Part shown: piece by piece, positions 55,838 through 62,861 of the stretch
Numbering within the stretch: position 1 is the first letter of the stretch
Layout: every line of letters begins with the position of its first letter
NCBI GenBank assembly: GCA_020137815.1
Contig: CM035358.1
Location: forward strand, 5,146,001-5,210,000
Reading direction: 5' to 3'
Length of the DNA: 64,000 nt
Origin: Hormiphora californensis
Lineage: Eukaryota > Animalia > Ctenophora
Notes under the pieces: model-generated
Seen by the model: only the letters and a program-made list of their open reading frames with translations
What the model was told of the DNA's origin: nothing
The model's database searches: none
Made by a program: the position numbers and the translations under genes

Positions 55838-56412
55838 TTACCTCCTTCCTAGACAGTTCGGTTTACCCTTTTCTAATGTCCCATCATGATATCTACTGTG
55901 TACTATCTCTATAGTTTCCTCAGGCTGAAATAGAGAGTCATTAGTCACATGTAAGGGCTCGATCGTAGTTTTTTCAGTTTTTATGCGTGTAACATAAGTA
56001 TCAATTAATTAAGTCATCACTTTAAGTTTATGTGGGGTTTATGTATAGATTTACCTGAAGCCAGGAAGTTATAACAAATATAAGGTATGAAATAGCATAA
56101 CAAATGTAGAAGAGGACTCCAGCTACAGGGGCCCGCATCCATTGAAGTTCCAAACGGGATTCCAACGGTTTCTTAGGCTTTAAACACTCCTTATAGACCT
56201 GATATGAGGGGGCGGGTTAGTTTAGTTTAGTTAGTTAGTTAATTTGTTTATTTGTTTGTTTGTTTGTTTGTTTGTTTGTTTGTTTGTTTGTCTATTTGTC
56301 TGTTTGTTTGTTTGTTTGTTTGTTTGTTTGTTTGTTTGTTTGTTTGTTTGTTTGTTTGTTTGTTTGTTTGTTTGTTTGTTTGTTTGTTTGTTTGTTTGTT
56401 TGTTTGTTGGGT

Positions 56413-56471
<59 letters not shown>

Positions 56472-59400
56472 TTGTTTGTTTGTTTGTTTGTTTACCTGTT
56501 CTGTCCTCCTTGTCACATCACCCCAACTATACATTTCTTTCACCCTCTTGTGCATCTCCCATCCCGACATGACGTCTCCCTTGTCAATCCTGAAGTAGAT
56601 ATGGAAAAGTATAAAACCCTGAAGTAAAAGTGACGTGCAGTAGATAATCCGCATATCATAACAAGTCAAGTGTAATTACCTTTCAATGGTCTCCATGATT
56701 CCCTGTGTAAGTGCCTCAGCAGTAGGTTCAGGTGCCAGGTACACAAAATCAGCAGGGAACACCTCACAGATACCACCCACAGCAGTTGACACTACGGGCA
56801 GGCCACAGGAGACAGCCTCAACAATGGCCATACAGAAGGCCTCGGTTAGGGATGTGTTTAGGAACACGTGACCCTGAGGACGAGGTAGTGTTTTATTGGA
56901 CAATATGGAACATAAAACCAGTCGGGGGGGGGGGGGTTCCAACCTGCAGGTGGGCCCCACAGGTGACAGTGTGGGGGTTCCAACCTGTGGGAGAAAAGAC
57001 GTACGTGCGTGTGTGTGTGTTTTAGTGGAAATAAGGAAAGATGCAAACGGTCACTGCACTGGCAAGTGCCCCGTGGCCTTAGGGGGGTCTGGGGGCACAG
57101 CCCCCAGCATTAAAATATTCCAGATTATGAATGCATTTCCCGCAGCGTCAAGTATCGACAAAAGGCCACGGGTGTTCCAAACAAATTTCTTTTGTTTTTT
57201 TGGTCTAGTATTATTACCGTGTGCGGCAAAAAAAAGGCCCCCCCCTAGACCACCATAGTTGCCGATGTGGTGGAGAGCTGTAACTTGGCAGGGTTGCTCC
57301 ACTATGTCTATCTTGATCCTGACAGAAAAATCAGAGCTCTACCTCAAAATTCATTTTCATGAACGGAATGAACTTCTCCGTTCCTTCGATATGAGACCCC
57401 CTCATCATTCAGAATTTTTTGCCCGTCTTTGGCTAACGATTATCTTTGTAATGAGACCAATTTGAGCATAATCTGATTACCAGGAGAGACACAGTGGAGG
57501 GTTTTCCGACCGTCACTCCTGACATGTGATCCAGGCCCGGTCACGTGGTGAAAAGTGGGTTTGGGGTGCTGTTAACATGTCTCAATAACGGATTATTGCT
57601 CTCATATCCCTTGAATATCCCTCCACAATGCTCTCAAGTCACTTTGTGATGCTGATTGATTGGGTTCATGTCACCAGTTCTTGTCAAAGTTCTCAAGCGG
57701 CCCGTGATACGAGATCATTTCATCAAGGAGGGGCCATCTTGTGTCACTAATCAGCCTATCATCTCACATTACACTAGCCAAGGGATCTGGGGTATTTAAA
57801 TCTTCAAATGTTCATCAAAATCATTCCTGAAACTGTCCGATGGATCTTTCTGCAGGACTTCTTGGATGGGGCATGGCGGCCAAACTTGATAAAGAACTCC
57901 TGTTCGATGGTGGGGTAGAGGGTGTTGGTTTCCTTCTTGAGCCAGATGAAGTTCCTCTGTTCGGGTGTAAAATGCATTGCAAGTAACGATTGGGAATGAT
58001 TTTGATGAACATTTGAAGATTTAAATACCCCAGATCCCTTGGCTAGTGTAATGTGAGATGATAGGCTGATTAGTGACACAAGATGGCCCCTCCTTGATGA
58101 AATGATCTCGTATCACGGGCCGCTTGAGAACTTTGACAAGAACTGGTGACATGAACCCAATCAATCAGCATCACAAAGTGACTTGAGAGCATTGTGGAGG
58201 GATATTCAAGGGATATGAGAGCAATAATCACCCCAAACCCACTTTTCACCACGTGACCGGGCCTGGATCACATGTGACGGTCGGAAAACCCTCCACTGTG
58301 TCTCTCCTGGTAATCAGATTATGCTCAAATTGGTCTCATTACAAAGATAATCGTTAGCCAAAGACGGGCAAAAAATTCTGAATGATGAGGGGGTCTCATA
58401 TCGAAGGAACGGAGAAGTTCATTCCGTTCATGAAAATGAATTTTGAGCTAGAGCTCTGATTTTTCTGTCAGGATCAAGATAGACATAGTGGAGCAACCCT
58501 GCCAAGTTACAGCTCTCCACCACATCGGCAACTATGGTGGTCTAGGGGGGGCCTTTTTTTTGCCGCACACGGTATATGCACAAAAAATTTACCCCTCCCC
58601 CCCACTTTACCTAATTGTCCCTCAGTTCCTAGGTCGCCCCACAAATTTCAGGGTGTAAGAGCTGGGAATTTCATTGTGAAATCCTACCTTTACAAGTACA
58701 TCCCGGACTTTGCTCTGGTTCACCTCTCCCAACAGAGTTATTCTCTCATGCAGGCGATGTTGTTCCCTCAGTTCTTCCAGCATGAGCCTCTTGGGCCCAT
58801 CTCCCCCAATTAGGAACTTTATTCTGGGGTCCGCAGCACATACCGCTGGTATAACTCCGTGTAGCAGGTCGGTACCTGGGAAATAGGGGGAGGTATGAAA
58901 GCTGCGGTGGAATTTAAAATCACGTTGAGAATGTATATTGAAAGCCAAGAAATTATCCGGCTAAAACAGTGGTGACTGGTGCCCCGTGATATTATATTGG
59001 TCGCCCGCACAAAGGGATATCTCCTCCTTTTACAATGGCAATTTACAATTTAATATTTCTCCTCCTTTTACCTTTTCTATACACAAGACGTGACATGACT
59101 ACCACAACAATTTCCTCGGTGTGCGGGGGCCGGGCCTCAGGGGGGACAAAGAGAGACGTGTCGATAGCGTTGGGTATTACCCTCACCTAAAATAGATAGA
59201 AGTTGGTATGGATCCGTTGCTAGGTTTCTATATGAACCGAAAACTCTTACCCCTCTTCACCACAATATTTGTCACAGGGCACGGTGAGTCAGGGTTGAGC
59301 AAGGCAACCACTACCTCCTTCACTCTTAGCTCCTTCTGTTTACCCCCCATCCTCCTTCACTTTTACCTCCCCTCTCATTCACTCTTACCTTCTCAGGTGG

Positions 59401-60259: not shown

Positions 60260-60456
60260 CTTTTATTTGGGGGTTGGGACTTGCTGTATCTCGTGTTGTG
60301 TTCTTCATCAGGACATAGCTGGGAGGTGAGGGGAGATGGAAATCAATCTGGTATCCACAAAATGAGCATCAGTCTGTTTCAACCTGTTAAATATTATACA
60401 TTGGTTGAAAATACATCACAATATAGCAAAACGGAAGTAAAACTAACAAAAACTCT

Positions 60457-62861
60457 TCACTCCTTCTTATCTTTCTCTTCCACCCCATCACCACATGGCA
60501 ACTTCATTGTCCATTGGAGGGCCCAAACGGGCAGCAGTAGGAAACTGTAAGCACTCCACGTCCAGAGTCCGAATGTGGGTCTTCCCTCGTATACACCAGT
60601 TATAACTGTAGCCATATCGGATAGGAATGAATTCTGGGGGAGATGTCTGATGTGTGTGGTGTAGATCGGTTATAGGGGTGATTAGAGACAAATTGAGTTT
60701 CTGTAAGAGTTTTCCGGTGGCAATTCTATGTAAAGCCACAAAGAGTGTGATCAGATAACGGGAAAATAGCTGGGCTCCTAGAATTAGAACCTACCTGATT
60801 GTAGTTGTCAACTTGTAGTGCAATGTAGAGTTGAGCATAAACTGCAACAAGAACAAGTGGGTTAACGGCAATTAGAACCAATCGCTGGAGCAACCGGAGT
60901 ACCTTGCTTTGTACTGGACCCTGGGAGAGAGAGGTACTTTCAAATCAATAATATCTTGTCATGCTCTAACGTGGTGAGAGAGGTACATTCAAATCGATAA
61001 TACCCAAGATGGCTACTTCACTCTTCATTTATTCTCCAACATTTGTTATTATGTATTTAATACGAGTGGTAAAATCAAAAGGCGCAATTGTCTACGTTAC
61101 CTGCATCAAAAAGGCAACTGTTGTGGGAAGTGCGTAAAATATCGTTAGCGAGATATTCAGCATTGATAGGAACACGATAGATAGGACATGGAGAAGGAGG
61201 ACAAACTGAAAAAAAGATCATTAGTTGAAAGTTGTCTATTGTTTTTATTTTTGTGGCGGAATGCTTCAAGTTTGGGCTTCACAGAAAACATCGACACACA
61301 CTTCCAACAGTTCGAACAAACCGGCGCGCGGAAGGGATGCTGAAACTCATTTTCAGTTTGCTTTCTTTGCAAACTAAACGCGGCGCGCGCCACACTTACG
61401 GCTTGGTGAAGCCTCCAATCTTGTCTCTGTCGGAATAGGGCCCCACTGAGAACCACTGCCACTTGAGCCACCAACAAAAGGGGAAAGATGTTGTCGTGGG
61501 TTAAAACCAGGAATAGGGCTTCGTTTGCAACTGCAAACAGCAACCCATACACAAACGGGTAGACGCAATCTATCGTGTTTACCACTGAAAAATGATGGGT
61601 TTTTTAAATCTTTGTAACACACGATTTTTCTAACCCCCGAGAGAGTCCCGGTCGACCATGGCAAGACACGATTGGACAGGGATCACGTAGCTAGAACTAT
61701 AATTCCCTACCTCGGTCCTTATAAAATATTGATTTCTCTCCCACTTCAAGGGTAGTTCCGCAGGTCAGCCAGAGACCGAGAATTTTAGCGGCCGGAGCGG
61801 CTAGAATCAGGCCACACGGGGCCATGTAGACACCCAGACAGACAAACCTCTCTATACACGGCTGAAACATGAAAAACAATTTGGAATGAAAAATTATTAG
61901 TGTTCACTGCCTTGTAAGTTATGTTCTAACGGATAACCCTCCTTTACACTTGTGAGATAGGGTTGAACAAGGCAATCACTGACGTTATTTGTCACAATTG
62001 TCCTACATAACTACTCAGTGATGACACTAACCAGTAGATAGAAATAGTAAGCAGTGTGAAATTGCTCCTCCAAATTATTGATACTCCTTAGCACGCTTTC
62101 GGAAAACCGTCCAATGTGCTGCCACGAATACCTGAGAACATGAGGTTTACAGGAACATAGGTGTATAGGACTGCAAAGTGACAACACAAGGGTCCTTGCA
62201 AAACTATGGATGCGGTTGTCTGATATAAGACCCTCCTCTTCGCACCGGGCCGAAGGCCCGGTGCGGCTACGTGAGGCCGCGTAGCGAGGAGGTCTATCGA
62301 GGTTGCGCGATGTACAGTCAGTGTCTGACAAGGATGCGGAGAAGTGACGATAAAAAATTTGAAAAAAGGGTATGACACACACAAACAGTAAACACCTCTA
62401 GCTGGAAAAATATATGGAAGAACAATTGGAACTGGAATCAACTAACCTTTTGTGCTTTGAATGATGTGAAATGTAATCGGCCGTGCTGCGGCTAAAAAGG
62501 TGTGTTGTGTGAATGTATTGTCTTTTGCTGTGAAACCACGTGTGAGAAACATGTGCCGAAACAAAAGTTGAACAGGACTAAACAATTCAAGTTTTTCTAT
62601 AAAAGAAATTATAGACACCGGATTAGTAAATGTACACCGGATAAGCAAGGAATGATTAATATCGTAATAGTTTGATGTACTTGATTAGTAATTTATTATA
62701 ATGGTTAGTGAGCACAGTAATTCATTGACTGTAAGTTACCTATTTCTTCGAGTCCCTTTCTCGGAAGTAACCCCCACTGCGTGTATATTGTAAGGATGGT
62801 AGAGGGAGTGAGGGGAGGCGACCTTGCCAACAGCCTGCCACGCCATGTTTGCATACAAACC
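60457..62861 (-). CDS. GPAA1: GPI transamidase component GAA1/GPAA1, 3' seven exons (5' part lies beyond the window)
   Basis: Phase-consistent exons 62861-62740, 62131-62032, 61861-61711, 61584-61400, 61205-61101, 60920-60795, 60633-60457. QAVG...HSLYHPYNIHAV, IGRFSESVLRSINNLEEQFHTAYYFYLLP...RFVCLGVYM, MLNISL and TFGLWTW...LPVWALQW match Gaa1-family motifs. Ends KDKKE (KxKxx ER-retrieval signal). Confidence 0.88.

What the first reader, a model, noticed from the sequence alone, without database searches (positions are those of the whole stretch)
55838..62861. GPAA1-PIGA: candidate trans-spliced GPI-anchor operon in an early-branching animal
Seen in sequence: two non-homologous genes lie head-to-tail on the minus strand, with only 197 bp between the GPAA1 stop (60457) and the PIGA ATG (60259), in a region where introns and spacers often run to kilobases. 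The gap has a U-rich stretch after the stop, then a pyrimidine tract and acceptor (CCATCTCCCCTCACCTCCCAG, AG at 60320-60319) 59 nt before the PIGA ATG. There is no strong donor and little room for a promoter. Established knowledge: PIGA catalyses the first step of GPI synthesis, GPAA1 is a subunit of the transamidase for the last step, and ctenophores use spliced-leader trans-splicing, the mechanism that resolves operons in nematodes and tunicates. Inference: a dicistronic, functionally coherent operon. I know of no description of this pairing.
Basis: partly seen in the sequence, partly recalled or inferred. Interest (0 to 1): 0.8.

Follow-up and report, generated by a model that had tools for sequence, protein, structure and literature searches.

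The report
Comb-jelly GPI-anchor genes: likely operon
In what protein matches mark as a comb jelly, the genes for the first and last steps of making GPI membrane anchors lie head to tail only 197 bases apart and carry neighbouring gene numbers in a distant comb jelly, so they are likely read as one RNA and separated by leader splicing, although no RNA spanning the junction could be found to prove it.

Summary
The layout is real. GPAA1 (3' half only in the window) ends 197 bp before the ATG of an intact 443-aa PIGA on the same strand. The closest proteins are ctenophore, and a 43/44 match to the Hormiphora spliced leader lies at 9959-10002. The acceptor 59 nt before the ATG is as strong as the best real ones (0 of 2000 shuffles). 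New support: in Mnemiopsis the GPAA1 C-terminal piece (G016770) is numbered directly before PIGA (G016771), although gene order between these lineages is rarely kept. The operon itself is unproven. No RNA contig covers the gap, and no leader junction was seen. The U-rich stretch looks like an ordinary 3' UTR, and a mid-strength donor 65 nt upstream exists. Acceptors also precede other start codons here, and an unrelated pair lies 645 bp apart. Verdict: candidate leader-resolved operon (about 0.55); separate PIGA promoter about 0.3. A 2021 paper states operons were unreported in ctenophores. The scan had not noted this pair before, but noted another pathway pair in this genome (e1-10582507).

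The parts
60457..62860 (-). GPAA1 (Gaa1, GPI transamidase subunit), last 7 exons: 62860-62740, 62131-62032, 61861-61711, 61584-61400, 61205-61101, 60920-60795, 60633-60457 (stop TGA). The 5' half lies beyond the window end.
   Evidence: Open frame of 320 aa; Pfam Gaa1 on three exons, one above the curated cut-off; 60% to Bolinopsis GPAA1 276-593; 2 introns joined in RNA contigs
60260..60456 (-). 197-bp gap between GPAA1 stop and PIGA ATG
60384..60456 (-). T-rich stretch after the GPAA1 stop, likely the GPAA1 3' UTR; no canonical AATAAA
   Evidence: 48% T; PIGA's own 3' flank is 53% T
60378..60386 (-). Mid-strength possible splice donor (GT at 60383-60382); would give a 65-nt intron, shorter than all 19 modelled introns (minimum 90)
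   Evidence: 6.3 bits; background 16-19% of 137-nt tiles; intron sizes
60319..60346 (-). Branch-point-like pentamer, C-rich pyrimidine tract and AG acceptor (AG 60320-60319); likely site of leader addition
   Evidence: 14.3 bits, 0 of 2000 shuffles; branch-like motif 28 nt upstream. Leader addition is inferred.
60260..60318 (-). Predicted 59-nt PIGA 5' UTR with two upstream ATGs (60316: two-codon uORF; 60308: out of frame, overlaps the PIGA start) and AATAAA at 60267-60262
   Evidence: AATAAA occurs in 26-28 of 324 random 197-nt tiles
55838..60259 (-). PIGA (GPI-GlcNAc transferase catalytic subunit), 10 exons, 443 aa: 60259-60158, 60038-59937, 59788-59660, 59565-59389, 59186-59072, 58875-58688, 56873-56680, 56589-56496, 56198-56055, 55924-55838
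   Evidence: Pfam PIGA and Glycos_transf_1; 79% to Mnemiopsis, 78% to Bolinopsis PIGA; 3 introns joined in RNA contigs
9959..10002 (-). Spliced-leader sequence (43 of 44 bases match the Hormiphora leader) joined without a GT donor to the 5' end of a LINE; evidence that this species uses the leader

Best explanation
GPAA1 and PIGA are intact genes lying head to tail 197 bp apart in a ctenophore, and they likely form a two-gene operon: one transcript begun upstream of GPAA1 would run through the gap and be split by adding the spliced leader at the acceptor 59 nt before the PIGA start. Shown: gene identities, spacing, the strong acceptor, a leader sequence in this genome, and neighbouring gene numbers in Mnemiopsis. 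Inferred: that GPAA1 mRNA gets its 3' end within the 137 nt before the acceptor through a non-canonical signal; that the leader caps the downstream RNA at 60318; that PIGA has no promoter of its own; and that this dependence is what has held the two genes together across ctenophore lineages. Ribosomes would have to scan past two upstream ATGs to reach the PIGA start, which has an A at -3.
For: Spacing of 197 bp stop-to-ATG and 137 bp stop-to-acceptor is under the 250-bp rule used for chaetognath operons (PMC12460157) and under the 417 nt of the experimentally proven Hydra operon (PMC3273482). The acceptor is very strong. The only usable donor in the last GPAA1 exon or gap gives an intron shorter than any of 19 modelled. 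The leader is present in this genome, and 56% of Hormiphora Iso-Seq reads carry it. Mnemiopsis numbers run G016768 (GPAA1 N-part), G016770 (GPAA1 C-part), G016771 (PIGA) on one 14.6-Mb sequence, while Hormiphora-Mnemiopsis microsynteny is described as limited or rare. Bolinopsis holds both genes on a sequence of the same length, 17,428,893 bp. Both genes are spliced in poly(A) RNA of one study.
Against: No leader junction and no dicistronic RNA were seen. An acceptor before the ATG is not specific: 2 of 5 other inferred gene starts in the window have one of 9 bits or more, one of them with no co-oriented upstream gene found nearby. An unrelated co-oriented pair lies 645 bp apart in the same window. 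The U-rich stretch is not special. A mid-strength donor exists. Mnemiopsis strand and distance were not seen, only numbers, and the Bolinopsis accessions are 985 apart. In a related species' RNA contig the 32 nt before the PIGA ATG are not leader. Operons were unreported in ctenophores as of 2021, so the prior is not high.
Confidence: 0.55

Rival explanations
1. PIGA has its own promoter in the GPAA1 3' end or the gap and is trans-spliced at 60318 as a single gene with a short outron. The linkage is kept because the promoter overlaps GPAA1. A hybrid form, with both an upstream and an internal promoter, is included here.
For: Leaders are very common in this group and are added to monocistronic genes in tunicates, flatworms, chaetognaths and Hydra. 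Acceptors precede other ATGs here. An embedded promoter would explain the conserved adjacency equally well.
Against: Only 137 nt between stop and acceptor would have to hold the 3' UTR plus promoter plus outron, or else the promoter sits in transcribed coding sequence. This is an argument from space, not a test.
Confidence: 0.28
2. The acceptor serves ordinary cis-splicing: either a 65-nt 5' UTR intron from the donor at 60383, or a long intron from a non-coding exon further upstream, possibly shared with GPAA1.
For: The donor scores 6.3 bits, within the range of real donors, and a branch-like motif is present. Sequence upstream of 64000 could not be examined.
Against: 65 nt is below all 19 modelled introns (minimum 90), and donors of this strength occur in 16-19% of random tiles.
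Confidence: 0.12
3. Competing processing of one transcript: GPAA1 mRNA ends at the AATAAA at 60267, inside the PIGA 5' UTR, so each primary transcript gives either GPAA1 mRNA or leader-capped PIGA mRNA but not both.
For: It is the only canonical AATAAA within 200 nt of the GPAA1 stop.
Against: The hexamer occurs in 8-9% of random 197-nt tiles. 5 of 6 genes in the window have no AATAAA within 200 nt of their stop, so it is not needed. The related species' contig has none in the 32 nt before the ATG.
Confidence: 0.05

Closest known systems
Hydra RFC140-flp bicistronic operon (PMC3273482; section 6 and passages read)
   Same: Non-bilaterian animal; two unrelated co-oriented genes; stop, T-rich stretch, pyrimidine tract, acceptor in a short gap (417 nt stop-to-acceptor there, 137 here).
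   Different: Hydra's was proven by reporter, acceptor mutation and RT-PCR; this one is not. The Hydra genes share no known pathway, whereas these two serve GPI synthesis.
Chaetognath operons of Paraspadella gotoi (PMC12460157; passages read)
   Same: Defined as genes under 250 bp apart with a leader on at least one gene; housekeeping functions; no operon-specific leader.
   Different: The leader criterion is not met by data here, and the phylum differs.
Single-leader tunicate operons (Ciona, Oikopleura) and C. elegans SL2 operons (PMC7986045; background section and passages read)
   Same: Short intercistronic DNA resolved by leader addition; about 100 bp in C. elegans.
   Different: Ciona operons mostly have no spacer; no specialised second leader is known here. 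The same paper says operons were not reported in ctenophores.
Ctenophore innexin cluster INXB-D (PMC9949713; passages read)
   Same: A rare gene linkage kept between Mnemiopsis and pleurobrachiids, read as a regulatory constraint.
   Different: Tandem paralogues spread over tens of kb; the word operon does not occur in that paper. GPAA1 and PIGA are non-homologous and 197 bp apart.
Mammalian PIGY-PREY bicistronic mRNA (recalled, from no call)
   Same: A GPI-pathway gene sharing a transcript with another gene.
   Different: One mature mRNA with two frames, no trans-splicing, and the partner is not a GPI gene.

Membership tests
PIGA / GPI3 | PIGA domain plus GT1 glycosyltransferase domain in a full-length frame | tested here: met
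   PF08288 on three exons (two above cut-off), PF00534; 443 aa, 79% to Mnemiopsis PIGA
GPAA1 / Gaa1 | Gaa1 domain and multi-pass C-terminal half | tested here: met
   PF04114 on three exons, one above cut-off; own Gaa1 profile hits six exon frames; 60% to Bolinopsis GPAA1. The N-terminal half is outside the window.
SL-resolved eukaryotic operon | Adjacent co-oriented protein-coding genes with a short gap (under 250 bp in the chaetognath rule) | tested here: met
   197 bp; rule
SL-resolved eukaryotic operon | The organism uses spliced-leader trans-splicing | tested here: met
   43/44 match to the published leader, joined to a LINE with no donor; indirect, from DNA
SL-resolved eukaryotic operon | Unpaired splice acceptor before the downstream gene | tested here: inconclusive
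   Acceptor 14.3 bits; a 6.3-bit donor lies 65 nt upstream
SL-resolved eukaryotic operon | Leader joined to the downstream gene in RNA | tested here: inconclusive
   None of 3 runs covers 60262-60477; a relative's contig shows 30 of 72 extra letters, which are not leader
SL-resolved eukaryotic operon | One primary transcript; no promoter or start site before the downstream gene | not testable with these tools
   No CAGE, ATAC, ChIP or nascent RNA could be reached
SL-resolved eukaryotic operon | Upstream gene's poly(A) site lies before the acceptor | tested here: inconclusive
   No AATAAA before the acceptor, but 5 of 6 genes here lack one near the stop; no RNA 3' ends
SL-resolved eukaryotic operon | U-rich intercistronic element | tested here: inconclusive
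   48% T, like PIGA's own 3' flank at 53%
Conserved microsyntenic pair | Adjacency kept in distant relatives | tested here: inconclusive
   Consecutive numbers in Mnemiopsis; same-length sequence but distant accessions in Bolinopsis; strand and distance not seen; no Gaa1 in 80 non-ctenophore PIGA loci

The most novel reading that the evidence does not exclude
Ctenophores have spliced-leader-resolved operons, and GPAA1-PIGA is an old, pathway-coherent one, dating to the common ancestor of lobates and pleurobrachiids. It couples the last and first steps of GPI anchoring under one promoter and is kept by selection for co-expression. With the separately noted taurine-pathway pair in this genome, it would point to bacterial-style pathway operons in the sister group of other animals.
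Probability: 0.3. Interest if true: 0.78.

Novelty: new member of a known kind. Interest (0 to 1): 0.52.

Why it matters
Ctenophores trans-splice most mRNAs, but a 2021 paper lists them among groups with no reported operons. My searches found no later report and none on this pairing. A conserved pair of two genes from one pathway is a sharp test case. Existing Hormiphora Iso-Seq and Mnemiopsis ATAC and H3K4me3 data could decide it without new experiments. If true, operons would extend to the sister group of other animals and could explain some of the few gene linkages that survive in ctenophores. The 197-bp gap could also serve as a bicistronic cassette for ctenophore transgenics, as the Hydra gap did. 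If false, it is an ordinary tightly packed housekeeping pair.

Tried and rejected
No whole genome is held for this window, so there is no genome-wide gap distribution and nothing upstream of GPAA1 could be checked for more PIG genes. RNA: 3 runs were found, all as contigs. None covers 60262-60477, which proves nothing about the gap. Of 11 modelled introns wholly inside the laid stretch, 5 were joined in X1 or X2 (one study). X3 is a relative at under 90% identity. Ctenophore loci were sought without success in metagenome contigs (best of 80 loci 63% identical), viral contigs and prokaryote genomes. A Gaa1 profile found nothing in those 80 non-ctenophore PIGA loci, of which only 36 have 2 kb or more upstream: weak evidence that the link is ctenophore-specific. 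A word-index search with GPAA1 exon 3 found nothing; the full HMMER scan with exon 2 did. GPAA1-PIGA fusion protein rejected: the frame after the acceptor has stops before the PIGA ATG, and donors in the last GPAA1 exon score 0.1 or less. Operon extension downstream rejected: PIGA is followed by two tRNA genes, and the next inferred start is about 5.5 kb away. The odd 51-aa member P0032 of the PIGA cluster is not another frame of ctenophore PIGA or GPAA1 (best 21 of 51 compatible codons). A nematode Ur-type motif was not found in the gap. Derelle et al. 2010 is not held and the Hormiphora supplements could not be read; either may mention ctenophore operons or list this pair. The protein atlas gave no answer. 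No complex prediction was run, since the two proteins are not claimed to bind.
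Full report
Genes. On the minus strand, seven exons from 62860 to 60457 splice at GT-AG sites into one open frame of 320 aa. Three of these exons hit Pfam Gaa1, one above the curated cut-off. The model aligns to residues 276-593 of the 636-aa Bolinopsis GPAA1 at 60% identity, so the 5' half of GPAA1 lies beyond the window. Ten exons from 60259 to 55838 give a 443-aa PIGA, 79% identical to Mnemiopsis and 78% to Bolinopsis PIGA, starting at the same methionine. 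RNA contigs from two metatranscriptome runs of one study join 5 of the 11 modelled introns inside the laid stretch, three in PIGA and two in GPAA1. That PIGA catalyses the first step of GPI synthesis and GPAA1 is a transamidase subunit is textbook knowledge, recalled and consistent with the Pfam names.

Host. The best hit of a PIGA exon was Mnemiopsis leidyi at 82%; the next of 26 hits were at 73% or less. The window holds one 43-of-44 match to the Hormiphora leader at 9959-10002, with none in 100 shuffles. It is joined without a GT donor to a LINE 5' end, which is best read as a retrocopy of a trans-spliced RNA. The host is therefore a ctenophore, probably a pleurobrachiid (inference), that uses leader trans-splicing.

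The gap. It is 197 bp, with the AG at 60320-60319, 59 nt before the ATG. I built a small acceptor model from the 16 acceptors of these two genes. The site scores 14.3 bits, against -1.9 to 14.5 for the real ones in leave-one-out. It is reached by 0 of 2000 shuffles of the gap, 1 of 4047 plus-strand AGs and 5 of 4416 minus-strand AGs; the other 11 AGs in the gap score 3.2 or less. The training set is small and the site was picked beforehand, but it is very likely a functional acceptor. A donor at 60383 scores 6.3, above 5 of 15 real donors in leave-one-out. It would make a 65-nt intron, shorter than all 19 modelled introns (90-1814 nt), and sites as good occur in 76 of 467 and 91 of 467 random tiles. 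The T-rich stretch (48%) matches PIGA's own 3' flank (53%). The one AATAAA lies after the acceptor, 7 nt before the ATG; it has an 8-9% chance rate, and 5 of 6 genes examined lack one within 200 nt of the stop. Two upstream ATGs follow the acceptor.

Controls in the window. I scanned 300 of 489 non-repetitive frames of 45 aa or more against Pfam. A coiled-coil gene (stop 40776) and an RRM/zinc-knuckle SR-protein gene (ATG 41422) are co-oriented 645 bp apart. PIGA's stop is about 5.5 kb from the next inferred start at 50304. Of five other inferred gene starts, two have an acceptor of 9 bits or more within 150 nt (9.1 and 9.2), and the others score 3.3, 5.1 and 5.3; background for 9 bits is 39 of 426 and 60 of 426 tiles. 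So the GPAA1-PIGA gap is the shortest seen, but close packing and acceptors before start codons are not unique to it.

Conservation. Mnemiopsis PIGA is ACHWQZ_G016771 (KAL5251171-2). Mnemiopsis GPAA1 is split into G016768 (KAL5251168, N-terminal 516 aa) and G016770 (KAL5251170, C-terminal 145 aa), all on a 14,606,143-bp sequence. If the tags run along the chromosome, which is an assumption, PIGA directly follows the GPAA1 3' end; strand and distance were not seen, and G016769 is unidentified. In Bolinopsis both proteins lie on a 17,428,893-bp sequence, but their accessions are 985 apart (XP_063686887, XP_063687872), which leaves adjacency open. PMC8527503 and PMC9949713 describe Hormiphora-Mnemiopsis microsynteny as limited or rare, with blocks of at most four genes; that analysis needed three genes, so it gives no rate for pairs. 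No Gaa1 was found in 80 non-ctenophore PIGA loci, 36 of them with 2 kb or more upstream. By hand, about 24 GPI genes (recalled) among about 13,800 genes (the Beroe count) give roughly 0.04 expected adjacent GPI pairs per genome. That is unlikely for this pathway but not across all pathways, and an operon would lock any pair together whatever its function.

RNA at the junction. No contig of the three runs covers 60262-60477; coverage is too thin for this to count. A spliced contig of a related species (X3, under 90% identical) extends 72 nt beyond 60261. The 30 letters shown are neither leader nor like the window's UTR, lack AATAAA and contain an upstream ATG; the other 42 were not shown. The leader junction remains unseen.

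Mechanism. The most likely reading (0.55) is one transcript from the GPAA1 promoter, with GPAA1 3'-end formation in the 137 nt before the acceptor and leader addition at 60318 giving PIGA mRNA its cap. Rivals are a PIGA promoter embedded in the GPAA1 3' end (0.28), cis-splicing (0.12), and mutually exclusive processing at the AATAAA (0.05). All but the cis-splicing rival predict a leader at 60318, so leader reads alone will not prove the operon; promoter data are needed.

Comparison. It works like the Hydra RFC140-flp operon and meets the distance half of the chaetognath operon rule. Membership is not established, because the leader junction and the absence of a promoter are untested. PMC7986045 states that operons had not been reported in ctenophores. 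Six searches on ctenophore operons or trans-splicing and two on this pairing showed no such report. The words operon or trans-splicing were absent from PMC12221973 and PMC11184263, and operon from PMC8527503 and PMC9949713. What I saw of each paper: PMC7986045, section 3 and passages; PMC3273482, section 6 and passages; PMC8527503, PMC12460157, PMC12221973, PMC11184263 and PMC9949713, passages only; Derelle 2010, not held; the rest, search listings only. Subscription papers and the Hormiphora supplements were not seen and could hold a prior mention.

Verdict. A real, tight pair of GPI-pathway genes, probably conserved across ctenophore lineages, and a good but unproven candidate for a ctenophore operon. 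Interest 0.52.

Noticed in passing
window 4981-10002 (-): LINE headed by the spliced leader (10002-9959) with no donor after it; ORF1-like frame 9346-8294, endonuclease 7495-6602, reverse transcriptase 6639-4981; an apparent insertion interrupts the 5' end near 9400-9750.
   Followed up: partly
window 55473-55698 (-): Two tRNA-Asn(GTT) genes begin 139 bp after the PIGA stop, leaving little room for the PIGA 3' UTR.
   Followed up: no
window 39316-43001 (+): Single-exon coiled-coil gene followed 645 bp later by a five-exon RRM/zinc-knuckle SR-protein gene (SRSF7-like by layout, name recalled), with several acceptors in the gap and an apparent GC donor: a second, looser operon candidate.
   Followed up: partly
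window 57215-58574 and 63154-64000: Nested fold-back elements with near-perfect arms in PIGA intron 6 and in the GPAA1 intron at the window end.
   Followed up: no
window 27222-28247 (+) and 1847-2941 (+): Two single-exon GPCR-like genes; the first appears to lie antisense within an LDL-receptor-like gene on the minus strand. Only the second has a Pfam 7tm_1 hit.
   Followed up: no
window about 45600-50304 (-): Probable secreted Ig/LCCL-domain gene starting with a signal-peptide-like exon at 50304; Pfam hits are below cut-off.
   Followed up: no
proteins P0027-P0034: Genomic predictions of lobate-type PIGA read about 171 aa without a break, whereas this window has three introns in that stretch: lineage-specific intron gain or loss.
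   Followed up: no
window 60260-60318 and run X3: Upstream ATGs sit just before the PIGA start both here and in the related species' contig, a possible translational brake on the first GPI step; chance is not excluded.
   Followed up: partly
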